A stretch of DNA of 63,505 bases, counting the filler, from Kipferlia bialata (Eukaryota), in the NCBI GenBank assembly GCA_003568945.1. It is 6 parts of 6 records of this genome, joined end to end, with 100 filler letters (N's around TTAATTAATTAA, not from the genome) between each part and the next. Parts side by side here need not be neighbours in the genome. Positions count along the whole stretch, not along the records: positions 1 to 11,994 come from BDIP01001147.1; positions 12,095 to 24,085 come from BDIP01001148.1; positions 24,186 to 36,167 come from BDIP01001149.1; positions 36,268 to 48,244 come from BDIP01001150.1; positions 48,345 to 60,320 come from BDIP01001151.1; 1 more part is not named here. One strand, written 5' to 3'. Below the pieces are notes generated by a model that was not told the origin of the DNA, ran no database searches, and saw only the letters and a list, made by a program, of their open reading frames with translations. Within the stretch, counting starts at the first letter, position 1. The number at the start of each line of letters is the position of its first letter. Made by a program: the position numbers and the translations under genes. Of this stretch, positions 684-59,370 are shown piece by piece.

Positions 684-3600
684 ATGCCAATGGTAGAAGA
701 GGCTACGAAGCTACATGCGGATCGCTATGCCGAGTTGTTACAGAGAAATGCAGAGCTGGAGCAAGAGATAGCCGACATGAAGAGACAGACACAAGACCTG
801 GAGAGAGAGAGTGCAGAGATTGCTGCCTTACGTTTCGGTCCTGTACCTAGTGTGAGGACGGATGAGGTATGTACATATACTAACTATATATATATATATA
901 ATATATTATATGTATATATATACTCTATGGATGTGAGGACAGATGAGGTATATGCTAATGACAGAGAGTGTATTGATACTGATTCTCTTACAGTATACGG
1001 TAATTAGCATCCGCTCTATCTATATCTCTGTATCTCACCATGTATAGACTGAATTTGTATATACACAAAATGGAGTATAGTTACGGACACCACGCTGCTT
1101 CCCACATCTAGTGGGGGTATGCGATGTCTCGGGTGTGTAGCTTACATATCAGGTGTACAACGCATTGCTGCAGCACAGAGTCAAGTGCATGGATCGAGGA
1201 GAATACGAGAGCATCCGCCTGTCTGTCGACTGCCCCCTTCGCAGGATGTTCTATGACATGCCAGGTCAAGAAATGAGCATGTATTACAAGTATACAGCAG
1301 AATTATGTAACAGTATATCCATGAATATACTTATGCCTCAGAGGTCAGATACATATACATAGTGTGAAGTGCATATATCCAGTCCCCCTCTAATCTAATG
1401 ACAGCCAAATCCTGAATATACATGATATCCAGTCACCCTCTAATGACAGCCCCTGCCCCAGTCTGGCGGGGTGACACCAGTCTATACCCACAGATGGGGG
1501 GTGAGACACCATCCGACATGGACAGATTCCGTCTGGATATGCTGCACTTCCTCAGGTACACATGTGATATCAGCTGAATATATATGTGTCAATCTCTATT
1601 ATCACACCTCCCACTCCTCAGGTCCCACCTCCTCCCCCCTGGTCTGAGGTCTGCCTGTGACACAGCACACCTACCATTCCTCAGGTATCCATATGATATC
1701 AGTATATATATATATATACATGTCATACCTGCCACTGCTCAGGTACCAAGGATATACTATATATCATGAGTATATATGAGATATTTGCGCATAATGTATA
1801 TGCATTATCTGCCATTCCTCAGGTACCCATGCGATATCAGTGTGTGTGTGTATATGTATATATATAGATATATATGAATATATATCATCCTCCCATTCCG
1901 CAGGTACACGCAGGGGGAGAGGACAATGCCAACAGGCGCATGCAACCAGCTCCACTACCCAGACATAGGTGGGGGCATATAATATATGATATATACTGAT
2001 CCTCCGTGCAGCACTATACTATTTCTTTTCTATCCATAGGAGCATTACCTTACGGCCTATGTCTTGATGCCAATAGTATATAATACACTCATGCATAGGT
2101 GTGCACCAGGTCCTGCGGGACGAACAGGGGTCAGTCATAGAGGAGTCTTTCCATGAGCTCCTTCTGACCTCTCTGGTGGTATGGGACTGTGTTCAAAACG
2201 TATCTATTACCGTACCTAGTGCCTCATACTGTCTGTCTGTCTGATACCATTGAGTGACCATTTTGGGTCTCAATATGGTACTCTATTATTCGGACTCTAT
2301 GTAGACGCCTACCCCAGTACCTGTCTGATGAGAATATACTTTACTAGGTATACCATTGAGTGACCATTATGTGTCTTGATATCTGTGCTGTATTAATTTG
2401 TTACACATAAACCCACTCCAGTACCTATCTGACGGGGTTGGGAGGTCATTCACCCCTGCTGAGAAGGGGCAGGTCATGGAGAACTCAAAGTGAGTGTGAA
2501 ATGACTGACACACACATATATATTCATGTACATCTGTTCTTGTCCTGTGACAGGTCCTGTCTGTTTCGTTTGGACCTTCAGTTTCGGTACGTGCCGGCGG
2601 TTATTACTTAGGCTCTTAGAGGATCGCTCAATTTGCCTTTCTAAATGAGCGATCTTCATAGATAACTGTTTTGTTGTTCTACTTTCACTCGATCTCTCCA
2701 GTTCTCACCCCTCTAGGCGTCTGTATGAGGTTCATTCGGCGCGGGCTGAGATTGTCTCCCTCCTTCTGAGTCCAGATAGGTTCATGGTGTTCTCCACATA
2801 CATGAGAAGGGGGGAGTATGGCTATATGGACTCTATTAGGTATGAGTAATGCATTGTAGGCACTGTGTGTACCCACAGTGATACTGATACCAGCTACCAG
2901 GGGAGTGTGGAGTACTCCCTCCCAGAGAACCTTGGGTTGCTCTCCCAGGTCCTTGCCAGGCCAGCACCCAAGCTTGGGCTGGTCTTTCCCAAACAACTGT
3001 GGGGAGGAGAGGGTGAGAGTGAGGGAGAGACACCCATCCCTCCAGTGACGCTGCAGTTCCCTAGTATCGGTAGAGGGGGCACATGGGTGGCCTTCAACGC
3101 CACACACCATACATCACAGGCATCAGAGGCCGTGCATGATTGCGACAATACCATTGAGGGGGTGATTAAGATTACCCATAGAACCCTCGATCCAAACCAT
3201 GGCTCTCAGTGGAGAATTGATGAGGTGGGACTAATGATTGCTGTTATCATATTTCTCTTACACTGCTTCGATCTTATCTGACATAGATACTAGGAGATGG
3301 CTACCCTCCGTGTAGATATATCTCCATCAGTACCCACTACATCATGTAGTATCTGATACTGGATATACTATATATACAATTTGTATATCCAACACTGATG
3401 CTAATGCCTAGGAGATGGCCACCCTCCGGCACCTGCACACACTAGATGGGGTAGTGCATCTTGTTGATGTGCCATTGGGTCCAGGTGCATGTATGGTGCA
3501 ACCAAGGGGGACCCGGGTAGGCCTAGAGGGGGAGCCAAACAGGTACCAGCAAGTGTCTGTCGATCATCCTTCATGTCACTAACTGACTAATCTGTACTCT

Positions 3601-4616
3601 CACCCAGGTGGACTGTAGCCCACTCCCTGCACCTGCTGACCACCCTCGACACCTTGCACAGACAGTACCACACAGTCAACAGAGATATTAGCCCATGCAA
3701 CGTGGCGTTGGACCTCAGCAGGAACGATAGTATCAGTATCAGTACTCAATACTATGTATACTATAGACTGATACTCAGGAACGACGGTGTGCCCAGGTCC
3801 CTACTATTTGACTTCAGCACAGCAGTCAAGGTGGGGGAGAGACACTGCTTCGAGGGCACCTTGGCCTATGCCTCGTACCGAGTGCTCTATCTCTTGTATG
3901 CAGGTGACCACCACAGAGAGTTGGTGTTCGAGCCACAGGATGACATGGCATCGCTGGTCAGACTCACAAAGGTGTGTTTCTTCTGGCGATTTGGTGTTGT
4001 GTATTTCGGTTTATACTGTTTACTCTCTGAACAGTGGGATGTATATACACTGACTCTAACTCACTGGATAGACTCACAAAGGTGTAATAGCATGTACATG
4101 TGTATATGTGTGGATACTGTACATTCAGTGTATTGTATTTAGCATAGATATGTCCTTTGAACTGTTGAGTCTTCCTACTCCAGGTGTTCCTATATCTCTG
4201 ATACTTTGCATATAGATGTACTCTTGAGACTCAAGTTGAGTTCTCACTCCAGGTGTTCCTAGACCTTGGCACAGGAGCCAGGCTCGGCAGCCTGCTGAGG
4301 AGTCAGCCCAAGGGCAGGGAGGACCCTGTGCAGTTAGTCACTTTCTGGGCAGAGGTGGGTGTCTTCACTTGTCATGAGTATACGGATTACTTGCAACTTC
4401 CAAGTTGGAAGCTTGGTTGGTGTATACGTGATAATTCTGTCAGGTACCCCACTAGTAAAAACTGAGAGCCGTATACTCTTATACTAGGCCTAGTAGAAAT
4501 GTATGAGCTTACCTCAGGAACTGGCTGAGCACCCCTGGAGGGCACTTGAGGAGGCAGCTGTGGCAGGGGATGTGCCTAAGATGAGAGAGGTGCTGGAGGG
4601 TATGCAGGAGACATAG
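684..4616 (+). CDS. Multi-exon Crinkler/RHS-like protein: N-terminal coiled coil, degenerate restriction-endonuclease-like domain, C-terminal FunK1/fungal-type protein kinase
   Basis: Spliced exons give kinase motifs IGRGGTWVAF (Gly loop), VIK, EMATLRHL, VNRDISPCNV, LLFDFS and GTLAYASYRVL...QDDMASL, with stop TAG at 4614-4616. The middle region YPDIG...FTPAEKGQVMENSKRLYEVHSARAEIVSLLLS resembles the CR-REase pattern. The true start may lie upstream (acceptor at 675). Confidence 0.8.
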
Positions 4617-4921
4617 GACACTATCCTAAGGGCATTTACCTATTCATGTCGGTCTGCCGCAGGTGTAGACTTACAGTGAATGGTATCATCATAGACTGAC
4701 ACACTGTGTGAGGAAGAAGGACTGAGAGATGGTCAAGTTCCGGAAAGTAGACACATTCATTATGAAAGAATTCTTAGTGTCGGCATGCTATCTAGTACAG
4801 TTGTAGTAGGTGGCCTACTCATTCTGTATATGTACAGAGGTTGAACAAAGCACTGAAGTTGACGTGGCAATCGATATGACCAGTCAAGAAGTGGACACTT
4901 GTGTGTTGACATGTCGTCAGG

Positions 4922-5011
4922 CTCTACAGTGACATCTTGTCACTGTAGAGTCAGACTCGTCACCACAAGATAGTCACTGTAGAGGGGCGTCAGTGACATG
5001 ACTCATGTCAC
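4922..5011. promoter_or_regulatory. Two perfect inverted repeats upstream of the ATG at 5060
   Basis: ctctacagtgaca-tct-tgtcactgtagag (4922-4950, 13-bp arms) and gtgacatga-c-tcatgtcac (4993-5011, 9-bp arms). A regulatory role is inferred from position only. Confidence 0.3.
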
Positions 5012-5059
5012 CCACCTCTCTTTCACACTGACACTGACACTGACTCAGATCTCTCTGGA

Positions 5060-7529
5060 ATGGATCCCATTATCCTGCCTGACCCAGGAGAGATTGTTAG
5101 AGTCGGTGAGTGCATTAGATCTACTAGAGAGTCAATTGGATTGGTTCTCAAGATGACTCGGATTCATTGTGGACTTGCCCTACACGGAACGATGATGATT
5201 GCTTACGATGGTCAATTGCTTGTCTCTCTCTAAGAATGTCTTCGAATACTTACTGACAGGCCGTTCAGAACTGTTAGAGTCTCTGATTGCCAAGCAGGTA
5301 CCATCTCTTGGTGAAACACTAGCGGGGATTCCGAAACAATATTTCCCTCACATTCTTCTGCTGTTGCGAATAGTATGAGTCCATTCTAAGGGAATACTAG
5401 AGAATCCTTTGTTGGCGTGTTTAGTGAGGAGTATGCGTAGGATTATATCTAGTACTCTTGTATGGGTTTTCACCACACTGCCGAAGTATGATACTGTGGC
5501 AGTGTGCAACATATATATATAACTCTATACATTAGTACCACGTATTACAGACTCTGTATTACAGAGTCTCTATTGCTAACCAACAGGATGACGTCATTGA
5601 CGATCTCAAGAAGAGACTCTCCAGAGTCGAGAACCGTGACAATCTGGAACAAGCTTCCAAGTCTCGCAGATGCTGCTTCATTCTCTCTCATGTGGTACTA
5701 TGTGCAACTGTAGTCCTCTTGGCCCTCCTGTTACTTGCATCGCATCAGTACACGACTCAGATATCTGAGGTATCACTATGTATTTCCGTGACACTGTGTA
5801 TACACTTCATACTAAACACATATACATTGTGCCTCAAAAGACAACATACTTTCTAAAACTTACTCTCCAGAACGTCTCTCGTCTCTCTACACAGGTGAAG
5901 GGCGTCTCTCTAGACAACCTCAGAGAGCACACGAGTGCAGCTGTCACAGACGCCAGGACAGATATCATGGGACAGGTACATCACAGCCTAGTAGCCACAC
6001 TTTACTCTGTTACCAATTTCCAATAGTGTACGACCCAAACAATGCCTTACACCAGCTAGATACTGCAATGAAGATGTCTACTGATCTGTACACCACTATG
6101 GCTACTGACCTAGCGAAGAATCTGGAGGCAGATGTTCAAATCCTACACGCTAACACCGCTCAAGCCTCTGACCTCTGTCTCTCCAAGAGTCAGACACACG
6201 ATGCTCTGTTCAAGGTTGTACATCATAGGTTGGAACAACTGGAAGCTGGTGCCGCTCAAATGGGCTCCACTGTGTTATCCCACGCCTCTTCTCTTCCTAC
6301 GGTGTTCGAGAGAATGGAAGCACTTGAGCGCTCCCTTGATGCGAGCGAAGATGTCACATCGGTGATCTCAACATCATTGGCTACATTGTCTGACACTGTT
6401 GTGGGTCTTTGTACTGTATCAGATACACTTGTCACGGACATGTCTAGAGTGACATCCCACACATCCGCTCTCAGCCAGAATATCGCCGATATAGGTGCAT
6501 TGGACGTCTATATCACTTCAACCAAGAGTGATATCAACGCCGTCTCTGCATCAGTCGCTAGCAATGCTGGCGAACTAATCAACTTGAGCGCCTTGTTCAA
6601 CGGGCTGAAACATACCACTGCTACTCTGACCAGAGCGGTTGGTGAGCATACTAGCACTCTTTCCACGGTGTCGTCTTCCCTGGGCCGCCTTCGTAAAGTG
6701 GTGGATACTCTCGAACACTCTCTCACAGAGTCTGTGTCAGATATTAACACCGATAGAGAGTTCATCAAGTCACAGCTGTCGAGCATGTCTGCAGTCAGTG
6801 CAAGCCACGCTACCAAGATTCTATCCCTGGGTGATGATGTCACAGCTGTCCAGCGTCACGTGTCTGATCTCGCTGTATACGCTGACCCCAGCTATAGCTA
6901 TAGTGATATCAACTTATCACTGATGACCGGAGTCTCAGTGAATGTTCCATCCTATACCAGGTATGTTGCTTGCCATGTCAAAATACACCTCCTATTCAAT
7001 CTCGAACATCTCTTATGACAGAAGTCGACCAGTAACGGCTGAAGACGCGTTGGCTGCTGTGAGAGCATCCTATACCGGTGTGACAATATGGGACACAGTC
7101 GAGAGGGAAATCGCTGACGTACGATTCTCTTCGGTTCTACACTCTGACAAGCACGAATACGGGAGTCAGTTCACCCTCGGATACAAGGGTATTGGCCCTG
7201 GTGCTTGGTCACCACACTCTAACACATATGGTCAGTTCGCTTTGGTTGTCTATGATACTCCTAGAATGGTATGCGCTATAGCTACTGCTGGACGGCCTTC
7301 AGGGCACGCCCAGTATGTAACGTGGTACACCATTGAGTACTATGACCCCGCCAAGAAAGAGTGGGTGTCTGTTGTAGAGGGCGAAGACTCTTTCATTGGA
7401 AATATGGGCACGGATACCATTGTACTGCACACACTGGCAGAGCCTGTCGTGGCCCAGAGAGTACGCATCACTCCACTCAAGTGGTATCGCAACATAAGCA
7501 TGAGACTGGAGGTCTATGGATGGCTGTAG
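5060..7529 (+). CDS. Long coiled-coil protein with C-terminal F5/8 type C (discoidin) domain
   Basis: ATG at 5060 with donor at 5106, several small exons, then a heptad-rich exon 6026-6960. A GT-AG intron at 6961-7021 joins it in frame to GAWSPHSN...AIATAGR...QYVTWYTIEY...FIGN...PVVAQRVRITPLKWYRNISMRLEVYG, the classic discoidin signature. Stop TAG at 7527-7529. Confidence 0.85.
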
Positions 7530-8498
7530 TAGGTCAAGTTGACAGTCCACTTAACATTGTCATATAGAACTCAATGAGGGAAACTAGTATTGGTCTCTGT
7601 TGAACAATGTGATAGAACATCTATCATAGAAGTATATTAGGAAGTATGTGGGGCAATCATAACGAGACACAGATGTCAAGTGGGTTGTCGGTCTCCAAAG
7701 TGAATACTAGTATATACAATATTCTACATATATTATATACTATATAACCACTTATAGGCTGGTTTGACCAGCACATCCACCAGCAGTGTCGGTTAGTAAG
7801 TCTAACTAACTAACTAACTAACATATGTCTAACACACAATGATGGCACTATAATGTTTGTAATATACACTAAACAGAGTAGTACTCTGAGAGTACCATGT
7901 CCACCTTTGTGTTGTTCTGAGCGTCTCGTACACTCCCTCCCCTTTGCTTCTGTGACAAGGATGTGCCCCATCACTATCAGTTACTGATACATAATCAAAA
8001 GACTATCGAGAGATTCTCTGATATATATTCTTCAGCAATATACAACTCCCCCTCCTGAGTCACCGTGACGAGTATAGTGGCCAGAAAGGTACCTAAGTAG
8101 GGTGGGCTAGCGACTTAGTTGGCCGACATGTTGCATATGCGTCCCATGATTATCCACCCTGCGACCTTTGCGACCTTACTAGGTAATGGTGAACACTCAA
8201 TGAGGTACACCAATTAGAACTCTATCTATTGAGAGTTCATACAATTACTCCGTGTGTACGTTGACAGAAGAACAGTAAACAGGATTCATCAGCTGTTGAT
8301 TCAGTAATCTACTTCTGTTATGAGTATCACCTCTGGGATATTCACTCAATGTCTGGCCCCTTATATATAAGTGTACGTGCACATGTATTCATATTTGTAG
8401 GTGTCTCACTCCTCTGTCACTGTCACTGTGACCAGCATAGTGCCAATGTATAGATAAATATCGGAAAATGTATTTGTCTACTCATGTATATGCGTGGT

Positions 8499-8950
8499 TC
8501 AGTGCATCTCCTCCCCCTCCTCTGTCACTGTGACCAGCATGGTCCCTGACACAGTGTGTAGGACACCATAGAGGGACTCATAGTCACCTCCAAACATACA
8601 CCCAGACCCGGCATAGAAGTTGGAACTGGGGTGAACGAGAAGGAGAACGCAACAAGACAAATACTTGCTTCCTGATCCACATCAATCTAGTGAAACCTAA
8701 GACACTAATCAATCTATACCTTTTCTTTGGAGCCTCTCCTTCTATCCTCGGCACTCTCTCCTCTGACCACTCCAGGGATAGAGTGTCTAGACAGTGGTAC
8801 TTGCCCTGGTGTCCATGCCCTCCTACCACGACGGTGGAGCTGGGGTGAGTATACTCTCTCTCTCTCACACACACATACACACACACATATATAATAGTCC
8901 CTGGTGTCCATGGCCACCAACCACTGCGGTGGTGCTAGTGTCAGTATACT

Positions 8951-8991
<41 letters not shown>

Positions 8992-10194
8992 TAGTCCCTG
9001 GTGTCCATGGCCACCAACCACTACGGTGGTGCTGGCATGAGTATAAATATATACACATACACATAAAGCCCTTCATTTACAGTGACAATGGCGGTGCTGG
9101 GGACACACACACATATATATATTCATACGTCCCCAACTCTATGCAGTGACAATACTCCCTACACAACATTACCCACTCAATATATAGTTCCTCCCTGATC
9201 TACACATACGAGGTATAATATAGTGCCTAGCACTATTGTAGTGCGACTGGTACCCACCCTGGTATAGATAGCTCAGCTGCCCCACTAGACCTGAATGGCA
9301 TAGGAAGAGTGGACCAGACAGCCACATACTCTTGGAGGTTAGAAGCAGTACCAGTATCAGCATTAGTAACAGCATGTATATATATGATATATATATATAT
9401 GATATATATATATATGATATATATATATAAGGGTGGACCAGACAGCCACATACTCTTGGAGGTTAGAAGCAGTAGCAGCAGCAGTCTCAGTATCAAGAGT
9501 TGCTGTCTACAGTCAAACAAACACATAATCCCAATACCTGAAGAATATCAACTCCATTGTAGCGCCCACCAGCATACATATTGATGATATTATATATCAG
9601 AGTATACACCATTGAGCATACCGGTGCAGGGTGTAGTCCCCTCTGTTGTCGTTATGCTGTACAATGTACACACAAGGCAGTCACCTGGTGTCAGGTACAC
9701 AACCACACACACACACACACATATATATATACACATATATGTATATACCAAGCAATACTTTGCCCACTAGTATCACAGCTAAATACCTCCCCTCTTTCCC
9801 CCTGACCCCGAGACTGTTGCTGTTCTCGTGGTCTGGGGTGCCACCCTGACATTGACGTCATGGCAGTGGAGGGTGCCTGGGTCAGATACACTTACTATAT
9901 ATATATATATATATATGTGGAATAGTACATTTATACTATGTACTGGTGACAATATAGCAGTGGATGTCGCCTGGGTTAGATATTAACGCTTGTCTTTTTC
10001 TCTATCTATGTATTCATATATATTCATTGTTTCCAGAGTGGTGAGGTCAGAGTGGCTGGGTTTTGGTGTCACATAAGTGTATATATATATATATGGTCAC
10101 TCCAGCTCCCTCACCTCTCTTTGTGTACTCTGGCCCTGACTCACTGGGCACAGGGTGGGAGGGGGTGGAGTGAACTACCTGGGGATAAGAACTC

Positions 10195-10230
<36 letters not shown>

Positions 10231-11900
10231 GACATAGATATATACAAATATATATATATATATAGGTGGAGTCATGCTTGCCAGCAACCAACATGAATCC
10301 ACATGTACATTAAGTATCAACACAATACAGCATGTGCACTTCTCAGTAGTGGATGCCATGTCACACTGCTAACCTCACCCCATATACCAGTAGACTATAA
10401 CTCCACACCCATACACTATATACATACTTTCATATGTAAATGGTAATCAAATAATATATATGTGTGTAGTTACAAGCATAGAGTGTCATCACCTCACTCC
10501 AGACACCGGTGGATGGGTCATGCACCCAAGGGTATATAATTGATATGTATACATATGGTTCACAGTACATATATAGAGATATATACATACATACCTCACT
10601 CCAGATGCCAATGGATGGGTCATACACCCACGAGTCATAGACACCCTCTCCTGTGTTGTCATTGCCAGCTGGGGGTAGAGGGATTTGCAGATAACAGGGA
10701 ACACCATCAATATATCCCAAATACTTGTCATTGCCAGCTGGGGGATGAGAGAGGTTGTGTCACAAATATCAACACATATACAAATATGTCCATCTACATG
10801 TTGTCAAAACACTTGCGAGGGACTCTGTCTGCATACATTGTGAATTCGCATATACTAATAGGTTATTAGCATGGATGCAGTATTATCATTAGTTCATATA
10901 ATGATGTGCCATACAGTTTGGTGAGTATGTTACATTTTGGCACCTGATATGAAGAAGTAATATATATTTACATACATATATATATGTGTGTACGTGTATA
11001 CGTACCTGATATGAAGAAGAGTCCATCGATGCAGCCAGACAGACAGCCACCCCTGGGTTGAGGAAGAGACAGGTAGAGAATGCTATAAGACAAAGAGAAC
11101 ACCTATATATATAATATATAACGGTACATAGAGAGTATATCCTCATACTCTCTTACAAGTGGAGTGTGTTGTACATGACTAGGCCAAGTATTTCGAAAAA
11201 CTAGATATGCACTCTCACCCACCTGGGACATGGCCACTACTATTATATATACATATATATATACAATGAATACAATTACAATATAGGTTGTATCCACACT
11301 CTATCCCACCTGGGACATGGCCACTTGATACCCCCTGGGGAGTAGTCATACGGGATGTCCTGCCACTCCCGCCTCTTCACCTGGGGTGATGTATATATAC
11401 ACACATATATATATATATATATACATATCTATATATACTAACAAGATCTTCACCTGGGGTGAGATGTATATATAACACCCATAGTAGAAGTGTTTGATAA
11501 AGCTACTTGTTACTAGGCGAAGTTATACAGACATATGCCAACCCACCTCCTTCACATTCAATCCTCCCACCGTCTCCCACGTGTCTGTGTCGACAGTGTA
11601 TCGGTGGAGCTCACTGACGAACACCTCAGACCCCTCGTCATACCCACCGAAGACATACACGTGGGGGCCCACCCTACGGTGGGAGAATGTTCAGTGTTCT
11701 TGGTATACAGAGTAGAATGAGTATATATATATATATATATATATAGTACCTTTCCACCGCACTGCCGTACAGTCTTGGGTTGACAGGGGAGGGACTGATC
11801 ACGTCCTAGAGTGAGAGTGCAAGATGGAGTTACACTCAACATGCCTACATATGTATAAAGTATACATCCAGGCAGTGGGTACCTTGAGTGTGACTGTGAA
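8499..11900 (-). CDS. Kelch-type beta-propeller protein (5' part lost in gap)
   Basis: Exons encode VGPHVYVFGGYDEGSEVFVSELHRYTVDTDTWETV, GVYDSWVYDPSIGIWSE and VVVGGHGHQGKYHCLDTLSLEWSE. Probable stop TGA at 8499-8501. Confidence 0.8.
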
Positions 11901-11994
11901 CTAGGTATATATATATACATTGATATATATAGAAATATGTATACATATTCAGTACCTTGAGTGTGACTGTGTCCCCCTCTATATACATTCATAT

Positions 11995-12094
11995 NNNNNN
12001 NNNNNNNNNNNNNNNNNNNNNNNNNNNNNNNNNNNNNNTTAATTAATTAANNNNNNNNNNNNNNNNNNNNNNNNNNNNNNNNNNNNNNNNNNNN
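11995..12094. other. Artificial contig linker (N-run with TTAATTAATTAA)
   Basis: 100-bp block with stops in all six frames. Identical linkers at 24086-24185, 36168-36267, 48245-48344 and 60321-60420. Confidence 0.97.
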
Positions 12095-12147
<53 letters not shown>

Positions 12148-12149
<2 letters not shown>

Positions 12150-48979: not shown

Positions 48980-51462
48980 CACCTGTACCTGCACCTTGCG
49001 AGGGAGTTTCTTACGCTCAAGACCCCACCCCCTGGGCATTAACTGACAGAACACGCATACATACAGGGGAACATGTGTACAAATACCACACACATATGCA
49101 AACCAAGTACGATTACGACACCGGTATAGCAAACTCGGAGGGTGGTATACAACTGATACACACCTGAGGAGTACATATACGTAGGAGACACTGATACTGA
49201 CACTGATACCTGAGGAGGACTGATATGGTGAGGCTTGGTATGCAGTCTGGGAGCACATAACACAGCGGAATGTACAGGGGGCGGGGGAGGTAGTTGCCTG
49301 GGCATGAGGTCCAAACTGACTGATACTATAAGGTCCATACTGACTGATAACATGGGGATGGGGCACATACAGAACATACATCAGCATCGGTATCAGGTGG
49401 CGACACTAACATACACAATACTTCACCAGAACCCGCCTTTGAACCTGCTCTTCACACCAATTACAGGCAATGTACATATAGCAAGCTATACAAATATATG
49501 TACCTCAGTACGCTGTGTGTACCTGTGAGTGGCCTGTGTGCAAACCCAAATGCCCTACACAGGGAACAGACGGCACCGACACTGGATGCAATGCCTAGAG
49601 GTCAGTGCCCATGGAAGGATGGACATACGTATATGTATATATATGGATATACATATACATATGTGGCAGGTACTGACACTGAAATACTGCACCATGCAGC
49701 ACACCTATACACTCATACCTATGTACATAGACACATTCCTATACACTCATACTAATTCACATATACACATACCTATACACTCATACCTCTATACATAGAC
49801 ACCACCTATATACTCACACCTATAGGCATATATACCCATACCTACGTGGAGTGACAGGTTGTGCATCTCTGGGGATGCCTTGAAGGACATGGCCTGCCTG
49901 AAGACATCAGGGGGGAGGGGTATACATACTAGTATACATATACAGATATAGAGATATCCAGACACCTCAGCTCCCGTATCATGTGGAGACCCCCCAGTGC
50001 AAAGAGCAGGGATATGAACACCCCTGCCAGGGCCATGAAGATTGTGTTGAACTCATAGAAGGGATGGCCCTCCCGCTCATCGGGCTCCTGAGAGTGGGAG
50101 GACACACCCACCCACACACAAACTCATATATACACATGATATGACATGAATGGGTAGGTAATAGCCAAGTGGGTTCCACGCCGAGGGCAAACAGGACATA
50201 TAGACATATAGGTTACTCACCACAATACCATAGTATACTAGAGTATCAGAATAATAATACATACAGACACTGTCACTGCCACTGATAGCATATAGAGTAT
50301 CAGTCTGAGCATGGTATCAGTATAAGTCTATCAGTCTTTCAGTCTATCAGTGTGTCTACCTGGAACGAGTACCACACTATGATGGCCAGGACCCCACCCA
50401 CCACAGCAGCAGAGGTCCAGGTCACAATGTGGAAGGAGAGGGGGCGGCGGGAGGAGTACTTGCTGCTAACCAGGAAGCACCTGACAATTGAGTATATATT
50501 AGGGGGAATACTCTATGGGATGTCCATTAGTGGCAATAGAGTACTGGTCACTGGAATGACAGGAAGAGAATGTACACTGATCATATGACACATGGCAAAT
50601 GACATATGATCAATGAGCCTGTCACAGCATATATTGTGCACATATAATGGCTGTCATCATGCACCTGTTGCATGACCTATATCCATAGTGTTATGTCCAT
50701 ATGGACTATGCACGCACCTGTTGCAGTACAGGCTGAAGGACAGGAGCAGTATTATATACAATGTATACAATATCATGTAGTATCAGTATTAACTGTCATG
50801 TACCTGTTGCAGTACAGGCTGAAGGATAGGAGCAGAGCAGCCATGGATATCCTGGGTCAGTAGGGCACATGCCTAGAAGGGGGTGGGGAGGGGTGGGGCG
50901 AAAGAGTGATAGGAAATAGATTGAGACTCAATCCTTGAGTGGGACTCAGAGAGGTAGGGAGGGGTAGGGAGAGGGATGGATGCCCATATCCACAGGAGAG
51001 ATGTAGGCTCCACCCGTTACCTGATACCAACACATCAGATGGGGAATACATCGTGCAATACCTGTTGATGGCAAAGTCGAAGTGGGTGTCGTCGATGTAT
51101 CTCCGTGCCACGACCCACCCTATGCGGCACAGGTGGCCCAGGCAGGCCAACAGAAGGGTGGCGGTGTCCCTGGGATCAGGAGGGGAGATATTCTGGCATG
51201 GATATCGAGCAAGGACCAAAGGCTGAATAGGGAGAGAGAACAGCCATATACATGTGGTCAACACCAATAGGTGACATGAAAGTATATCATGTACTACACC
51301 GATGGGGGGCAGAAACAAAGCATGGATAGTTGCAGAATATACCCACCTCGGTGTTGCCCTCCGGGACTGGTGGAGCCTCACACACACATATGCTGCCACC
51401 ACCAGTGCCACGCCCTCGACCCCACACCCGAGACCCACCTCCAGGGGATACAGCACGCCCAT
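48980..51462 (-). CDS. THH1/TOM1/TOM3 (GPR137-like) seven-transmembrane protein
   Basis: Seven hydrophobic segments. Motifs HLCRIGW, FAINR, EREGHPFYEFNTIFMALAGVFISLLFALGG, CSLCRAFGFAHRPLTG and LCYVLPDCIPSL. 3' end approximate. Confidence 0.65.
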
Positions 51463-51919
51463 GTCGACCTGGGGTCAGATATACACACTATACATACTGT
51501 CAGTGGAGACATAGACAACAGTGTCGAGGAGGGAGAACCATATGAATACTACAGACAAAGGCACTTGTTGGCAACTATGCATATCTGACTTACACTCTCA
51601 ATGACACTTCTCTGGGAGTTACAACCACCCCACGGTCTGGTAACCGTCGAACAATAACTCTATTAGTAATTCAACCCCAACCTAAGGATTGGACTCAGTG
51701 AGTCCACAGATCCGCGGAGTCTAGAGGAACAGGGACAGTATTTGACTAGAAACATGTCTTAGAGTTCTAAGACTTAGACATGACACATGAGAACCCTTTT
51801 TTCGTTTTTAGAACTGTCTCAGCTGACTCAGTCTGAGGACCTCTCCAGTCAAGGTTTGTGAACTCTAGGCGTGGAGATCATAGTGGTGATTCTACAAATC
51901 TATCTGTAGCCCCTAGACA

Positions 51920-52869
51920 ATGTATACTTCACATGGGTCACAAGGCGTGGGGGCTGAATCTAGAGAACAGATTGTACTGGGTCAGGAAGCTTTTGCTGAG
52001 ACCACCCGCAGCCATATCCGCAGCCAGCTGGACACCACCTCAAGGATTGAGGCCAGCCGCCTGCAGGACCGTTATCGTAGTGTTCAGGATCTAGAGAGGG
52101 AAATGATGCATAGGTCAGTATGGGTGTGTCCTTCCATCTCAATGCTACTGGCCGTTTGGAGTTATTACGGTTTGAGTCGCGACGCCAAGGATGTGTATTT
52201 ACCGACATGCATGTGTGTGTCTCTCCACTCTTGGGGATATCTCTGTATATAAGCATTCTGCCGAATGTATTGTTCACTCTTTCTGACCTGGATGTCTCTT
52301 GTTACTGCAGGTGCACGTACGTGGTACTGATAACAAGTCTGTGATATCAGTGACCAGGTCACTTCATAGGTTGTCATGTGTGTATCTAACCTTACTCACC
52401 ATCAGGCAGGAGGCCGCCATTGTCGAGGACTTCGATGACTATGTGGATGAGTCCTACAACGTGAGGTCCATACCCATTGAGCCTCTGCGGCTGACAGACT
52501 ACTCTACAGATGAGGGGTACCTGCCCGAGGAGAGGTACGCGAGTGTGTATGTGTGGGTGTATGGACGTATGTATTGTCTCTGTGATGGTGGGTGTACGTG
52601 ATTGGTATGAATGGTTTGCCCGAGTACCCACGCCAGGGAGGATGATATGCTGGAGAGAGAGAGGGAGAGGGAGAGGGAGGACATCCTGCTGTGCCGCCAG
52701 GCAGAGTCTCTGTCGCGGCTGAGGAGTGAGTTCAGCCAAGAGATGGAGGCAGCCCAGGGGATACCCCTGCCAGAGCACGAGACAGAGAGTGACACTGAGA
52801 GGGAGAGGGAGACCGAGACAGTGCCCGAGGGCATGGGGAGGGAGCTGTTGGTCATGGCAATTGAGCTAG
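51920..52869 (+). CDS. Acidic coiled-coil N-terminal region, possibly the start of the MIB-HERC2 gene across the N gap
   Basis: ATG at 51920 and spliced exons (…LEREMMHR, EAAIVEDFDDYVDESY…, …LLVMAIEL|). Ends at the 52934-53865 N gap. Confidence 0.55.
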
Positions 52870-53966
52870 GTATTGGCGCATATGTATGTACCCCCCCCCC
52901 CCCCCCCCCCCCCCTCCTGCGGGGGGGGGGCGCNNNNNNNNNNNNNNNNNNNNNNNNNNNNNNNNNNNNNNNNNNNNNNNNNNNNNNNNNNNNNNNNNNN
53001 NNNNNNNNNNNNNNNNNNNNNNNNNNNNNNNNNNNNNNNNNNNNNNNNNNNNNNNNNNNNNNNNNNNNNNNNNNNNNNNNNNNNNNNNNNNNNNNNNNNN
53101 NNNNNNNNNNNNNNNNNNNNNNNNNNNNNNNNNNNNNNNNNNNNNNNNNNNNNNNNNNNNNNNNNNNNNNNNNNNNNNNNNNNNNNNNNNNNNNNNNNNN
53201 NNNNNNNNNNNNNNNNNNNNNNNNNNNNNNNNNNNNNNNNNNNNNNNNNNNNNNNNNNNNNNNNNNNNNNNNNNNNNNNNNNNNNNNNNNNNNNNNNNNN
53301 NNNNNNNNNNNNNNNNNNNNNNNNNNNNNNNNNNNNNNNNNNNNNNNNNNNNNNNNNNNNNNNNNNNNNNNNNNNNNNNNNNNNNNNNNNNNNNNNNNNN
53401 NNNNNNNNNNNNNNNNNNNNNNNNNNNNNNNNNNNNNNNNNNNNNNNNNNNNNNNNNNNNNNNNNNNNNNNNNNNNNNNNNNNNNNNNNNNNNNNNNNNN
53501 NNNNNNNNNNNNNNNNNNNNNNNNNNNNNNNNNNNNNNNNNNNNNNNNNNNNNNNNNNNNNNNNNNNNNNNNNNNNNNNNNNNNNNNNNNNNNNNNNNNN
53601 NNNNNNNNNNNNNNNNNNNNNNNNNNNNNNNNNNNNNNNNNNNNNNNNNNNNNNNNNNNNNNNNNNNNNNNNNNNNNNNNNNNNNNNNNNNNNNNNNNNN
53701 NNNNNNNNNNNNNNNNNNNNNNNNNNNNNNNNNNNNNNNNNNNNNNNNNNNNNNNNNNNNNNNNNNNNNNNNNNNNNNNNNNNNNNNNNNNNNNNNNNNN
53801 NNNNNNNNNNNNNNNNNNNNNNNNNNNNNNNNNNNNNNNNNNNNNNNNNNNNNNNNNNNNNNNNNATATAATTGTATATGTTCCCTTATTTGTATATGTG
53901 GATCCGCTATCTCCCCCCCCCCCCCCACCCCCCTCGTTCCCTCATCCCCAACTGATTAATGCACAG

Positions 53967-56900
53967 GAAAGCTACACCCTGGTAGCGAGGTGATCAGGGG
54001 TAGGGACTGGGAGTGGGGCAACCAGGTGGGTGTATGTCTACATGCTGTAGACAACTACGCTGTCTCTTGTGGGGCAACGTGGTATATGTATATGTGCCAT
54101 ATAATTAACTATATATATTATACTATGTATAGTATATAGCATATAATATATACATACTAGATGACAGTGCAGTAGGAGAGTAAGACAACCATCTATTTTC
54201 CCCCCCATACCCACAGTATAGATTTATACACTAATATATATAGATACACCCAGATAGCTTTGACCTCGCCTTCCTCTCTGTGAACCTCTGTCCCTCTGTC
54301 CTCCCCTGTCTACCCATCTCTATCCCATTTCTCCCTCTTTCTAACACCATTCCTGCCTATATATAGATGAGGATAGTAGGGCAGGGAGGGGGGGGGGGGG
54401 GGACTTTGAGAGAGAGATAAGAAGAAGAAAACCTACAGTCATCTACTCACCTGATACTGACACTGATACTGATGCCAGGATGGAGGAGACGGTTGCAGAG
54501 GCACCCTGCTAGGCCCCCACAAGGGCGAGGGGTGGGTGGTGGTCCATTGGCACGAGACAGGTACCCCCCCCCCCTCTCTCTCTACTATTCTCATTCACAC
54601 ACTTTCATCGGACACCTATTCATATATGAATATTTCTGGTCAGTCTGATGGGACATTATTGTACATTGTAGATGGTGACTGTTTGTAACTACATCTCTGT
54701 CTCTCTTTCTATGTGTGTTGACACAGGCGAGCGTGAGGTGTACCGTGCCGGTGCCCATGCACTGTATGACCTTCTCTACGTACCAGGCAGGATTGAAACA
54801 ACCACTCCCTTACAGTCCAGTACCTCTCAGACGGTATCCAGGTGCATATATACAAGATACATATATATGCCCCGCATGTGCCATTGACCCCTGTCCACGT
54901 GTATTACCACCCAAAGGGCTCTCCACCTATTCCCTGAGCATTCCTATCTGTATACCCCCCAGTCTGTTATTGACTCTCAGTATCAGTATCTATATAATGG
55001 TAATACTGATACTGACTCTCAAGGCCCCCTCCCGAAGGAGCTGTGCACGCCGGTGGGTCCTGCAGACGTGGTGCCTCTGTGTCCAGGGGTAGGGACTGGC
55101 GGTGGGAGGACCAGGTATATATGTATGGATATGGGTACACTCTCCACACCAGGGTGGGGTTGTATGGGATTTCTGTTTGTTTGCTATCCTCACCTCATAT
55201 ATATATATATACAAATATATTTGTACACATGTATATATACACATGAGTATTGGAACATGCCCCCCTGACCAATAGGACGGCCATGGCCTGGGTGTGCTCC
55301 TGGACAACGTAGCCTCTGCCCCAGGGTGGGTCAAGGTCACATGGGGCAACGGACTGACCAACCACTACAGAGCAGGTGGGTGATTCTGTGTCTTGCAGTA
55401 TGTGTCATTCACTATACTATGGTCTTCAAGTATATTTGGTTTACCTTCCCTTCTTCCTGGATTTCCAGATTGTCTCAGAGTTCGTAGTCCCCGCCCAGGC
55501 TGGGCCCCAGCCATCATCTTGCCTTAAATGTTCCCTCTCCCCTTCACCCCCAGGTGCTGACGGGGCCTTCGACCTCCAGTATGCAGTGAGTGACAGGAGA
55601 ACTGGTACGTCCCTCTCTCTGACACTGTATATGCATAATGTTTGCACATCAATATATATGCATAGTAAAATATGTATAATCAGCAATGCTCAGGATCGAT
55701 TGCATTAACAGACCCATTATCAGTTCATTGTCATTGCGTGTATTCTCACTAACTAGCAGGGACGCCTATGTACCGGCGTATGGACACTCGTACTCCAGCA
55801 TCACTTGTATCTTCCCCTGTCTTGGACCTTGTCCCTGACTACGTCCCCACTCCCATAGAGTTCCTGCCTACCCAAGCCGCAGAGGAGTCTTCCTTCTCTG
55901 ACTCAGACCCTTTCATCAGAGCTCCCATGCCCCCTTCTTTCGGAGAGATGTATCCCCCTGTCCCCCAGAGGAGAGACAGAGAGATAGATTGGGACAAGGC
56001 TGTGCCACTTATAAGTGAGGTGGGTATTGGCTAGATCTATACATATGTCTTCACTCGTTTCATACGTTACTGCTTCACCCTCCTGCTACTCATTTCAGAC
56101 ATCCCCCGTTCAGTCAACCCCCGTCAAGGCACCGAGCGCTCCAGCAGGTTAGTATCAGCTAGATGCAGTATCCTCTTCTTTGCGTGGGGTATTCAATATG
56201 ATGTCATATAATGTCTTTGCATGTCTTTCCATGTCTTACCCATGTCTTACCCATGTCTTACCCTGTCTTACCCTGTCTTACCCTGTCTTACCACCAGGCC
56301 AGACCAAGCTGGAGAAGGCTGCGTCCTCCAAGGTGGCAGGCCTCCTGTCGATATTTGTGCCCCTAGTGGACAAGGTGGGTAGATATACACATTCATATAC
56401 ATACGTAGTACCTCTAGGATATGTATGCAAGCGCTGACCACAGCTCTGCACCCCTATCAAGAACGGGGAGAGCACCAAGGACGCCGCCAGGGAGCTACTG
56501 GAGAGGGTGCAGTACAGTGAGGTATTGTCTAGTATTGTCTAGTCAGTACGTCCAACAAGACAATACGCTATTTCACCATTAGGAGACACTCAAAATCGTG
56601 CAAAACCTCGTGGAAGCCAATGAAGAGTACGAGAAGGTGTGCGGAAAGAGTCTGAAGAAGGTAACACGACTGAGAAGGAACAATCTACCATGTATACCCC
56701 CTTTCGTCTCGGTTCCAATTCACAGGCCAACAGTGTACTCAACGAGGTCTATGCAACTGTCAGAGACTTCAACAGCAAGGGCGCTCTGGGACACGTGCTT
56801 AAGAGCAGTGACTTCCAGGTGAGACGTTACTGATACATTGATCTCTACTCCTCCCAATGCCATCACTATGATCTTCACTAGCCAAGTATGATATTGGTAG

Positions 56901-57383
56901 CTGTGTGGCCATATATCTGCGTTCCCGCATCTGTCCCACTCCCCCGTAACCACTAATCCTTAGGACAAGCTGACGCCTCTCAACACATCCTTCGCTGATG
57001 CCATCGTGGCAGTCACATGCTCACTCACTGCTGTAAGGGCGGTCCAGGCCAACGAGGTATGGGAGGGTGGCACTCATTGGCAATTACACTACTCACTCAT
57101 TGGTCCTTGTGCTTTTTGACTCATCCCAGGACCGTGTGAACCGTGCCAAGATGATGGAGAACCAGCATGTGATCATGAAGGTACCTTGATTGGATCATAT
57201 TTGTATATTTCACTATATATACTACTATATATTGCAGGGTCACCTCGTCTCTTGTTGCTAGAAAGTGAATATCCTCGAACCTATTGATATTGATTTGACA
57301 TGCAGCAACTATCTCACCTCGACATCGGAAACTGCGAGAGCAACAAGGTCATAGATCACACCGCAACCCCACTCATGGTATAG
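53967..57383 (+). CDS. Protein with two tandem MIB/HERC2 domains and a C-terminal MLKL-N-terminal-like four-helix bundle
   Basis: GSEVIRGRDWEWGNQ|DGGDGCRGTL...GWVVVHWHET|GEREVYRAGAHALYDL and GASVSRGRDWRWEDQ|DGHGLG...GWVKVTWGNGLTNHYRA|GADGAFDL. Then STKDAARELLERVQ...SLKK|ANSVLNEVYATVRDFNSKGALGHVLKSSDFQ|DKLTPLNTSF. Probable stop TAG at 57381-57383. Confidence 0.8.
56218..56292 (+). repeat. Intronic 10-11 bp minisatellite (c[a/c]tgtcttacc)n
   Basis: About seven tandem units immediately before the acceptor at 56297. Confidence 0.85.
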
Positions 57384-57753
57384 ATGAGACCATACACATC
57401 ACTCACGACGACAGAGTAAGTGTATAGCTGTAGGTGTTGCACTCTTACCAATACATGTGTCGCAGTTGACCCGTGTTTCCCTCGCTCAGATAAATGTGTA
57501 CATTATAGTGGAGGGTTCAAGTTGCTACTGTCTCTATGGTGTTTGAATGGAGTCTGTTTGGGACCCCTAAGATCATGCTTTTGCAGAGAGAGAGTACAAT
57601 CAGTATCAGTATCAATGATCAACGTAACGTGAAGTGGTGATGCCGCAATGCACACCAAGAATATTGGACTCGATCTATTACATCGAGCGTTAGTTAATTC
57701 GTGCGGTATTACAATACAATCATACATGGGACCAAACTGACACGCCCCACCCC

Positions 57754-59370
57754 TCACACCCTCTTGAGCACCACTACCATGGAGTCCTCAGGCTCAAACT
57801 CCTCATACCGATGCATAGAGACAACGGTAAACAGACCCTTGATGGCAGTGGCCAGGGTCTCCTCGGTGTGGTACTGGTGGAGGAGGGTGCCTGGGGTGAG
57901 ACGGTGTATGTCGATGTATATATAGAATACACTACTTACATATGTATATATATATATGGTACTGGTGCAGGAGGTTGCCTGGGGTAAGGGTATTGTATAT
58001 ACATACACACACATATATATATATGTATAATTATATACTATGTACATATATATACTACTATTATACTGATGAATGAGGATACCTCAGTGAGTCGGTCTGA
58101 TATACACATAGTGATATGCGTTGGTAGGTGGGATATTTAGATACACACACACACAGTGTCACTCTAACCTATGAGAATAATAACGCTATGTATATAGGAC
58201 TAGATCCCGACATGTGAACAGAGTATATATGTCTACACTATATTCACACATACTATCAGCACCAGTATCCACCAGAACTACATCCACCCACCACTGACCA
58301 TTATACACAATATACTGTATATACACATCCCCCCACCTGTCATCATTGAGTCTGTCCCATACCACAGGGAGTGGCACGCAAGGCCCCCCTCCTAGAGGTC
58401 AGGGAGAGGAGTGTGTAAAGGGTAAAAACAGACTCTAAACTATATGTACTGGCTCAGTACTATAGCGACACGGCCACCCTTCTAGGCAATAGGAGAGAGG
58501 ACTACACGAGAGTTGAATGTGTGACGTCAGAGTAGAATCAAATATACCTTGAGCAGCCTGTGCTGTGACTGGAAGGACGCCCTGAAGGAGGGGAAGTCCA
58601 GGTGCTGAAGGACCTTAGGGTGAGAGGGGTGTGTGTATATGACGGAATGTAGAATCTGTACACAAAACTCGTTGCCACAAACCTTGTTTGAGAAAACGAC
58701 GTCTCTAGAGGCAGGAGGCAGGTTTATATCAGATGCATCCACGGTGACAGCAGAGAGGCCTAGGGACTGGAGGCGCTTGACAAAGAGAGAGGAGTGGTCT
58801 GAGTGTAAGAGAGTGGGAGAGAGAGGGGGATAGGAAGGGGCAGACAAGAGGGTTAAGCTGAAACAGAGAGTATTCTGTAACTGTATTGGTGTGTGAAGGA
58901 ATGGGGGAGGGGGGGGGGGGGAGAGAGAGAGAGAGAGAGACAGACAGACTCAGAGACGTAAAGAAACAAGATTCGGTGTGACCATCATTCAGGTACAGGT
59001 CAGTATTGTAGGCATATTACCAACCAAACAGATCAGCATAAGGACTCATATATAGGATGGCTTAGAGGCAGGGAATGCCAGTGACGGAGGGCCAAACGTC
59101 TAATAATAGTATAGCAACTGTGATATATACTTGTGTATGCACCACACACCCACCTGAGAGGAGTGTGTCCTTGAAGAAGCTGCTGAGGTACTTGCCGTCT
59201 GTGCCGGGTCCAGACCCCAGCTCCAGCACACTACTGGCAGCTGTGTCCACTCCCTGCACCTTGCACTCAGAGACCAGGGTGTCTACCAGGTGGTACCCGT
59301 CACAGCCCTCACAGGAGGCAATGTACTTGTCCACGTTGGTCTGGTCCTCGAAGAATGGGGTGGGGGTCAT
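57754..59370 (-). CDS. Class I SAM-dependent methyltransferase (5 exons)
   Basis: ATG at 59370. Motif I VLELGSGPG, then LS|DHS, VDASD, DVVFSNK|VLQHL, LLK|EGGLACHSLW and YEEFEPEDSMVVVLKRV*. Confidence 0.9.

What the first reader, a model, noticed from the sequence alone, without database searches (positions are those of the whole stretch)
850..58000. Intronic 'echo' copies of exon ends that diverge mainly at synonymous sites: a possible undescribed gene-architecture system
Seen: in most multi-exon genes on five independent contigs, introns hold 1-4 tandem copies of the neighbouring exon end (about 20-60 nt) together with its intact donor or branch+acceptor, spaced by AT or CT microsatellite. 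Examples: 931-950, 2316-2332, 3293-3310, 8900-9035, 12148-12342, 23884-24085, 24261-24400, 26435-26493, 27687-27727, 28750-28998, 34817-35270, 36000-36040, 43467-43501, 57958-57985. Codon comparison shows most differences are silent, including first-position Leu/Arg changes (TTG>CTG, CGA>AGA). Established: dead intronic duplicates should mutate at all codon positions. Inference: the echoes were coding very recently or still are. Options are (a) arrays expanding and contracting by unequal recombination so copies cycle through the functional position, (b) capture of divergent alleles or paralogs, (c) gene-conversion cassettes, (d) unusual splicing. The spliceosome must also ignore several perfect decoy sites.
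Basis: partly seen in the sequence, partly recalled or inferred. Interest (0 to 1): 0.92.

Follow-up and report, generated by a model that had tools for sequence, protein, structure and literature searches.

The report
Exon-end echoes archive diverged alleles
In the free-living protist Kipferlia bialata about one intron in four holds short copies of the neighbouring exon end that differ from it mostly at silent positions, likely because uneven recombination between diverged alleles left them behind as likely dead copies, which would make a single genome a record of the species' past genetic diversity.

Summary
The window is Kipferlia bialata. In 32 of 121 modelled introns there are copies of the adjacent exon end, against about 0.06 expected by chance. 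In all there are 59 copies in 42 arrays, and 51 of 58 keep GT/AG. A DNA contig reproduces one array, and an RNA contig splices only at the exon-contiguous copies.

Silent changes are about half of the differences (67 of 131), not most. The right null is d0/d4 about 0.5, because the exon itself drifts silently. Observed is 0.24 (CI 0.14-0.40; simulated null 0.53), or 0.34 (P=0.05) with looser alignment. The copies look dead now: random-like amino-acid changes, 4 stops, no usable alternative splicing.

The layout is a known kind: amphioxus 'mirages' and the F7 VNTR. The scan noted similar arrays in sea urchins, worms and sharks, with the silent bias there put down to exon-only selection. New here are the density and a bias beyond that null. 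The best explanation (about 50%) is unequal recombination between alleles about 15% apart at silent sites. No second isolate was available to test it.

The parts
851..951 (+). exon end 851-866 and donor-side copy 932-947 (ACG>ACA, silent; GT kept)
1548..1903 (+). repeated exon-end/donor unit. Copies at 1809 and 1889; the 1889 copy ends at the intron's own acceptor AG (tandem-duplication-like intron 1685-1903)
3294..3428 (+). acceptor-side copy 3294-3310 of exon start 3412 (1 silent change)
8804..9031 (-). kelch gene: exon start (8839 downwards) and two 36-nt acceptor-side copies, 8899-8934 and 8996-9031
10493..10668 (-). kelch gene: exon 10595-10668 and a 36-nt donor-side copy 10493-10528 (3 missense codons, 1 silent codon)
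12148..12342 (+). three copies of a kinase exon end (IIHRDIK-type) with GT; the live exon is not on this contig; not counted in the statistics
23804..24085 (-). exon start (23848 downwards) and copies 23879-23923, 23976-24018 and a partial third. Both full copies have private silent changes (star-like)
24261..24577 (+). acceptor-side copies 24261-24292 and 24371-24400 before live exon 24502-24577. RNA uses 24502; a DNA contig spans the array unchanged
25340..25607 (+). live exon 25340-25392 and donor-side copies at 25458 and 25575. The RNA carries the live-exon letters
26288..27238 (+). 59-nt donor-side copy at 26433 (3 of 3 changes silent) and four 29-nt acceptor-side copies (26610, 26830, 26980, 27092) of exon 27195-27238
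27376..29129 (+). further copies in the same gene: 27376, 27688, 27994, 28058, 28302, 28758, 28899, 28972
34820..35484 (-). KIPB_005067 region: exon 35329-35484 and four donor-side copies (35209-35270, 35092-35141, 34931-34966, 34820-34851); 10 silent and 4 missense; one four-gamete pair
35723..36036 (-). exon 35831-35911 with a donor-side copy ending at 35747 and an acceptor-side copy 35998-36036 (includes CGA>AGA)
36585..36724 (+). exon end 36610 and two decayed donor-side copies (36648, 36699), each with a stop codon
39052..39226 (+). exon end 39091 and a 40-nt copy at 39187 with 2 missense and 0 silent changes (counter-example); the intron part is alignable
40187..43499 (-). 14-exon gene with copies at 40322, 40418, 41094, 42023, 42150, 42233, 42508, 43038, 43237, 43499
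50718..50851 (-). exon 50804-50851 and a 32-nt donor-side copy 50718-50749 (1 silent change)
57869..57985 (-). exon start (57890 downwards) and acceptor-side copy 57957-57978 (1 silent, 1 missense)

Best explanation
The echoes are junction-spanning tandem copies ('mirage'-type) that are likely dead now and were likely taken from other, diverged coding alleles of the same gene by out-of-register recombination between homologous chromosomes. Shown: the copies exist, keep their splice signals, are skipped in the RNA where it could be checked, and differ from the exon about four times more at four-fold than at zero-fold sites. Inferred steps follow. (1) A break in a TA-rich intron is repaired off a homologue and joined out of register, leaving a seed copy of the exon end. 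(2) Copies that stop inside the exon survive, because the spliceosome takes the site contiguous with the exon body. (3) Later unequal exchanges between an echo on one homologue and the live exon end on another add or refresh units with that allele's sequence, reusing the same outer junction. (4) Each unit then decays neutrally (about 6%). The silent excess corresponds to alleles about 0.15 apart at silent sites.
For: p0=0.059, p4=0.219, d0/d4=0.24 (bootstrap over 42 arrays 0.14-0.40). The exon-only-selection null, simulated with the same detector, gives 0.53 (0.34-0.82), and 0 of 600 runs reach 0.24. The value is stable without CpG sites (0.24), without the 3 junction bases (0.23), for single-copy arrays (0.26), for donor (0.27) and acceptor (0.20) sides, and in five leave-one-gene-out sets (0.22-0.25). 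It vanishes in shifted frames. Copies also differ from each other silently: 16 of 52 four-fold against 21 of 233 zero-fold sites vary (P=0.018 against a two-fold excess). Changes in a nearer copy where a farther copy has the exon letter: 10 of 118 four-fold against 8 of 562 zero-fold (P=2e-4). A toy model with alleles 0.15 apart gives p4 0.226 (fitted) and 0.074 for that second statistic (observed 0.085; snapshot model 0.018). In 9 of 12 multi-copy arrays the copy lengths are within 2 nt, so the outer junction is shared. There is one four-gamete pair of silent sites. GT/AG loss (7 of 58 copies) is similar to p0, consistent with post-capture decay. Echo introns are TA-richer than echo-free introns of >=150 nt (0.10 vs 0.05, P=2e-4). 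K. bialata has no Ku70 entry, four Dmc1 entries, five Rad52 entries and one Pol theta entry (PMC8516963 Supplementary Data 2), and the fornicates examined lack Rad51A (section 8). DMC1 is described as mismatch-tolerant (PMC7809202, listing only). A eukaryote with silent diversity near 0.2 is known (PMC9305300).
Against: No second allele or isolate was seen. Two runs of another sample laid nothing, and two metagenome scans found no relative. One KIPB_005067 exon matched only itself among proteins of 48-2000 aa. The published assembly has one eukaryote coverage peak (PMC5874029), so the sequenced strain shows no sign of such heterozygosity. With a looser mismatch penalty the ratio is 0.34 (0.20-0.54, P=0.05). 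Outside the kelch and kinase-like genes it is 0.29 (0.15-0.60, P=0.07). The nearer-copy test assumes position equals age; with orders chosen to minimise it, it gives 3 of 118 against 15 of 562 (no excess). Silent diversity of 0.15 is near the top of the known range. Only about 38 four-fold differences carry the result, and the frames come from hand models, RNA-checked for one gene stretch only.
Confidence: 0.5

Rival explanations
1. Ordinary mirages: local tandem duplications on one chromosome that die at once. The silent bias comes only from the live exon continuing to drift, helped by rate variation, non-chronological order or chance.
For: It explains the layout, the retained splice sites, the random-like missense changes and the stops, and intron-only and 3'-flank duplicates occur too. 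The looser alignment gives 0.34 with P=0.05, genes outside the kelch and kinase-like set give P=0.07, and the order-free test shows no excess.
Against: It predicts about 0.53 and 0 of 600 simulations reach 0.24. Four of five detector settings exclude 0.5. It needs silent exon sites to change 2.5-3 times faster than dead intron DNA, yet intron parts differ by at least 18% where alignable (113 of 611) and are recognisable in only 24% of 55 copies. Four copies have >=3 silent and no missense changes.
Confidence: 0.22
2. Cycling on one haplotype: arrays expand and collapse (single-strand annealing between exon end and echo), so that copies pass through the functional position and only missense-free ones survive there.
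For: Direct repeats about 100 nt apart flank TA-rich DNA, and metamonads are reported able to use single-strand annealing and to lack NHEJ (PMC8516963). Shared outer junctions and one mosaic pair fit.
Against: Only one copy per chromosome is under selection at a time, so three versions each with private silent changes (23804-24085) are hard to get. 30 of 42 arrays are single-copy yet show 0.26. Two-way conversion should raise, not lower, d0/d4 (my reasoning, not simulated).
Confidence: 0.13
3. The copies were captured from close paralogues rather than from alleles.
For: The bias is strongest in kelch and kinase-like genes (0.15 vs 0.29).
Against: No close paralogue of the KIPB_005067 exon among proteins of 48-2000 aa, although that gene's four-copy array has 10 silent and 4 missense changes. 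Copies always sit beside their own exon. The whole genome could not be searched.
Confidence: 0.1
4. The copies are functional now, as alternative splice sites, exchangeable exon ends or diversification cassettes.
For: 22 of 56 scored copies have a splice-site score at least equal to the real site. 7 of 17 in-frame copies give a stop-free extension.
Against: In-frame spacing is 17 of 51, the chance rate. Stop-free is 7 of 17 against 36 of 136 controls (P=0.25). 0 of 51 are flanked by sites that would allow an end swap. There are 4 stops and random-like missense changes. The RNA contig uses the exon-contiguous copy in 3 of 3 arrays crossed (contigs hide rare forms).
Confidence: 0.04
5. Assembly artefact: haplotypes stitched in tandem at microsatellites.
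For: Short-read SPAdes draft (PMC5874029); contigs break at microsatellites inside arrays. One extra 123-nt DNA contig with another copy has about half depth (235).
Against: A separately assembled contig runs through the array 24250-24729 with 0 differences at full depth (possibly the same reads). Copies and their flanks share too little exact sequence for a k-mer join.
Confidence: 0.02

Closest known systems
Amphioxus 'mirages' (Adh3, BflGb6/BflGb9, troponin C, PGBD5; PMC3087553, PMC3902484)
   Same: Tandem duplications spanning 5' or 3' exon-intron boundaries. Many keep AG/GT, mRNA is spliced normally, unit lengths are similar (up to 160 bp), and they were proposed as a route to intron gain.
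   Different: Reported for single genes in a chordate. Here they occur in 32 of 121 introns in a fornicate protist, mostly as single copies, with the intron part of the unit often unrecognisable. The passages I read report no codon-position analysis. Copy-number differences between haplotypes are shown in amphioxus and untested here.
Human F7 intron 7 37-bp VNTR (PMC1557585)
   Same: The first unit spans the exon-intron boundary, and identical downstream donors stay silent because the most upstream site is chosen.
   Different: A single high-copy, near-identical minisatellite on the donor side only. No silent-site signature is mentioned in the abstract.
Intron gain by tandem genomic duplication (Rogers model; ATP2A1, PMC3265369)
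   Same: Duplication of an AG|GT-containing segment. Intron 1685-1903 ends in a copy of its upstream exon end.
   Different: Nearly all echoes duplicate an existing junction and enlarge an intron (median 284 vs 108 nt) instead of making one. No window-wide duplication signature at intron ends.

Membership tests
Mirage-type junction repeats | Tandem copies spanning an exon-intron boundary | tested here: met
   59 copies in 42 arrays; null 0.03 per side
Mirage-type junction repeats | Many copies keep GT/AG | tested here: met
   51 of 58
Mirage-type junction repeats | Normal mRNA, spliced at the exon-contiguous copy | tested here: met
   3 of 3 arrays crossed by one RNA contig; rare forms are not visible in contigs
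Mirage-type junction repeats | Whole unit (intron part too) homogenised like a minisatellite | tested here: inconclusive
   Intron part above the null 95th percentile in 24% of 55 copies; median intron-side match about 8 nt
Mirage-type junction repeats | Copy number differs between haplotypes or cells | not testable with these tools
   No second isolate or long reads
F7 IVS7-type VNTR | Pseudo-sites work when the authentic site is removed | not testable with these tools
   Needs a minigene; 22 of 56 copies score at least as well as the real site
Intron gain by tandem duplication | Intron ends resemble the flanking exon sequence | tested here: inconclusive
   Mean identity 2.64 vs 2.56 of 10 (P=0.24); 3 of 121 introns reach >=7 of 10 vs 0.67 expected (P=0.026); 0 on the donor side
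Intron gain by tandem duplication | Intron absent from orthologues | not testable with these tools
   No orthologous loci found
Mutually exclusive exons / exchangeable exon ends | Copy bounded by both splice sites in register and in frame | tested here: not met
   0 of 51 swap-capable; in-frame 17 of 51
Gene-conversion diversification cassettes | Open donors enriched in amino-acid-changing variation | tested here: not met
   Differences are biased to silent sites, with 4 stops in 63 amino-acid changes

The most novel reading that the evidence does not exclude
Kipferlia, which lacks Rad51A and NHEJ and recombines with Dmc1 alone, routinely repairs intron breaks off diverged homologues. A quarter of its introns therefore store fossil exon ends from other alleles. 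One draft genome would then hold tens of thousands of allele snapshots showing hyperdiversity (about 15% at silent sites) and outcrossing in a free-living fornicate, plus a genome-scale natural test of how a reduced spliceosome ignores perfect decoy sites.
Probability: 0.4. Interest if true: 0.78.

Novelty: new variant of a known kind. Interest (0 to 1): 0.58.

Why it matters
The published genome lists 124,912 introns (PMC5874029). If the window's rate of 32 in 121 holds, tens of thousands of introns carry such copies, so the dN/dS test becomes decisive at genome scale with public data. If the copies are captured alleles, population diversity and recombination between homologues could be read from one genome, in a lineage with unusual repair machinery. 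Even under the plain reading, the arrays explain much of Kipferlia's intron length variation (median 284 vs 108 nt), give thousands of natural decoy-splice-site experiments in a reduced spliceosome (87 of 174 proteins found, PMC6679479), bear on whether its introns are ancestral or gained, and can mislead gene prediction.

Tried and rejected
No whole genome is held, so there was no genome-wide count or paralogue search. No RNA holder is on record as such: X2 is RNA by the tool's guess, and X3/X4 held 0.02 and 0.00 of the words and laid nothing, which is no evidence. Reads were laid on 1.35 kb only, so the other 39 arrays have no read check. Metagenome scans with two proteins found no relative. 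A protein search with exon 41798-41938 found no hit. Pfam named 3 of 19 queries: kelch, steroid reductase and weak MIB/HERC2. Conservative amino-acid change as a sign of selection on the copies was not significant. CpG decay, junction bases or a single gene as the cause of the bias were rejected. The order-free version of the nearer-copy test showed no excess. Frame-preserving or swap splicing was at chance level. There was no window-wide Rogers signature. The Adh 'mirage' paper PMC117041 is not held and was not seen. Searches that found no description of these repeats in Kipferlia. The genome paper's main text has 0 hits for 'duplicat' and 'heterozyg'; its supplements were not opened.


Full report
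What the DNA is. The window is six scaffolds joined by N-linkers, with one internal gap. An exon on the third scaffold is 100% identical to Kipferlia bialata KIPB_005067, on a contig of the same length, 11,982 nt. K. bialata is a free-living fornicate with 124,912 GT-AG introns in a short-read SPAdes draft (PMC5874029; passages and sections 7 and 12 read). No whole genome was available to search.

The observation. An annotation-free search gave 111 local direct-repeat pairs. I built gene models by hand from open reading-frame chains: 121 introns, median 151 nt. Two acceptor or donor coordinates around one 23-nt exon stayed off-consensus. A codon-blind scan anchored at each exon end found donor-side copies in 21 of 121 introns and acceptor-side copies in 16 of 121, against 0.03 expected per side from other genes' introns. 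In total 32 of 121 introns carry a copy. With 16 flanking or partial introns added there are 59 copies in 42 arrays. GT is kept in 23 of 29 donor copies and AG in 28 of 29 acceptor copies. The copies are unevenly spread (9 of 17 gene groups by complete introns, P=0.01), and echo introns are richer in TA repeats than echo-free introns of 150 nt or more (0.10 vs 0.05, P=2e-4).

Real, and skipped by the spliceosome. Reads were laid on 24250-25600 only. A DNA contig runs through the acceptor array 24250-24729 with no difference, at depth 423 against 406 next door. This run may be the window's source, but its contigs are assembled separately. A 123-nt contig at depth 235 holds a further diverged copy ending in the CT repeat where the scaffold starts. 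It is most likely the next unit upstream, though an allele is not excluded. One contig of a run guessed to be RNA joins 24502-24577, 24637-24724, 24976-25045 and 25340-25392 to the next exon. In all three arrays it crosses, it uses the copy contiguous with the exon body, and at the 25340 exon it carries the live letters. Contigs cannot show rare forms.

The silent bias. Of 131 non-redundant differences, 67 are silent, 60 missense and 4 nonsense, and 56% fall at third positions. A dead snapshot should give d0/d4 of about 0.5; simulated with the same detector it gives 0.53 (0.34-0.82). Observed, counting each array once: p0 0.059, p4 0.219, d0/d4 0.24 (0.14-0.40), and 0 of 600 simulations reach this. 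It survives removing CpG sites, junction bases or any of five genes, and it disappears in shifted frames. Against it: a looser mismatch penalty gives 0.34 (0.20-0.54, P=0.05), although the other four settings give 0.17-0.25, and genes outside the kelch and kinase-like set give 0.29 (0.15-0.60, P=0.07).

The copies also differ silently from each other: 16 of 52 four-fold against 21 of 233 zero-fold sites vary (P=0.018 against a two-fold excess). Changes in a nearer copy where a farther one has the exon letter number 10 of 118 against 8 of 562. That test assumes position reflects age, and with the least favourable order it gives 3 of 118 against 15 of 562. The 23804-24085 array is star-like, with each of two copies carrying private silent changes, and the 34820-35484 array has one four-gamete pair.

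Dead now. The 63 amino-acid changes are no more conservative than random, and 4 are stops (about 4% expected). Use of an echo site would be in frame for 17 of 51 and stop-free for 7 of those 17, against 36 of 136 controls (P=0.25). None of 51 could swap exon ends. Splice-dinucleotide loss (7 of 58 copies) is similar to the zero-fold divergence, so about 6% decay since capture is a consistent reading (inference).

Mechanism (inferred). The pattern is what would result if two versions of an exon end were both coding for most of their separation and one then died. Alleles on different chromosomes meet that condition. A toy model in which each copy comes from an allele 0.15 away at silent sites gives p4 0.226 (fitted) and 0.074 for the nearer-copy statistic (observed 0.085; snapshot model 0.018). 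Nine of 12 multi-copy arrays have copy lengths within 2 nt, so later units reuse one outer junction. This is expected if an echo on one homologue pairs out of register with the live exon end on another. Seeds could come from break repair in TA-rich introns. K. bialata has no Ku70 entry, one Pol theta, four Dmc1 and five Rad52 entries, and the fornicates examined lack Rad51A (PMC8516963; passages, section 8 and rows of Supplementary Data 2; one supplementary file was unreadable). DMC1 is described as mismatch-tolerant (PMC7809202 and PMC6719624, search listing only). Silent diversity of about 0.2 is the known eukaryote maximum and few species exceed 0.15 (PMC9305300, two passages), so the required value is high but not unheard of. 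That TA tracts are break-prone is recalled, not shown here. Only partial exon copies would be tolerated, and choice of the exon-contiguous site has a precedent in F7 (PMC1557585, abstract).

The main weakness is that no second allele was seen. One KIPB_005067 exon matches only itself among proteins of 48-2000 aa, the draft has one eukaryote coverage peak, and no environmental relative was found. The alleles would have to be past or elsewhere in the species. My odds: allele capture 0.5, plain decay 0.22, one-haplotype cycling 0.13, paralogues 0.10, functional 0.04, artefact 0.02.

What is known. Junction-spanning tandem copies that leave splicing intact are amphioxus 'mirages' (PMC3087553, abstract and section 16 passages; PMC3902484, one passage; the Adh paper was not held) and the F7 VNTR. 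I took both leads from earlier scan notes. Those notes, report similar arrays in annelids, urchins and sharks, with silent bias attributed to exon-only selection. I had already set up that null, and here the data go beyond it. The echoes work like mirages and meet three defining features; whole-unit homogenisation is inconclusive and haplotype variation is untestable. Intron gain by duplication (PMC3265369, abstract) fits one intron, 1685-1903, but not the window as a whole. Five searches found no description in Kipferlia; supplements of the genome paper were not seen.

Verdict. Real, and a new variant of a known kind, not a new gene-architecture system. What is surprising is the density in a protist with odd repair machinery and a silent bias about twice the correct null. 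Both are directly testable on the public genome. Interest 0.58.

Noticed in passing
window 3720-3780 and 25960-26290: Two introns keep the reading frame most simply if the donor is AG|GA rather than GT (after 3722 and after 25964); both sit in duplicated junctions. Alternative GT donors with a shorter protein are possible, and there was no RNA check.
   Followed up: partly
window 32798-32866 vs 33078-33140; 8395-8445 vs 8500-8548 (minus strand): Decayed copies of a gene's last-exon end lie in the 3' flank, so the duplications are not limited to introns.
   Followed up: partly
window 13783-13897, 49703-49824, 56211-56293, 1375-1445, 2244-2377: Tandem duplicates with no modelled exon part (47-, 34- and 10-nt units and two pairs).
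   Followed up: no
all 121 modelled introns: The upstream exon ends in AG at 92 of 121 junctions, 60 are AG|G and 22 are AG|GT; CCCAG is the acceptor in 40 of 121. This is a strong proto-splice context.
   Followed up: partly
window 35329-35484 (minus): An in-frame 156-nt exon with four donor echoes is missing from the database protein KIPB_005067; the echoes may have misled gene prediction, or the exon is skipped.
   Followed up: partly
window 1462-1903: Two consecutive exons end in similar sequence (HFLR, PFLR) and their introns start alike, suggesting that the exon 1622-1684 unit arose by duplication.
   Followed up: partly
window 40109-43380 (minus): A 14-exon, 375-aa open chain. One exon had no database hit and six exons had no Pfam hit.
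   Followed up: partly
window 17485-23848 (minus): A large Ser/Thr-rich protein gene with one 1229-codon open frame; no metagenome relative.
   Followed up: no
window 59540-60295, 53967-57180, 9258-11975: A steroid 5-alpha-reductase-like gene, a MIB/HERC2-domain gene (13 introns, no echo) and a kelch gene (6 of 10 introns with echo).
   Followed up: no
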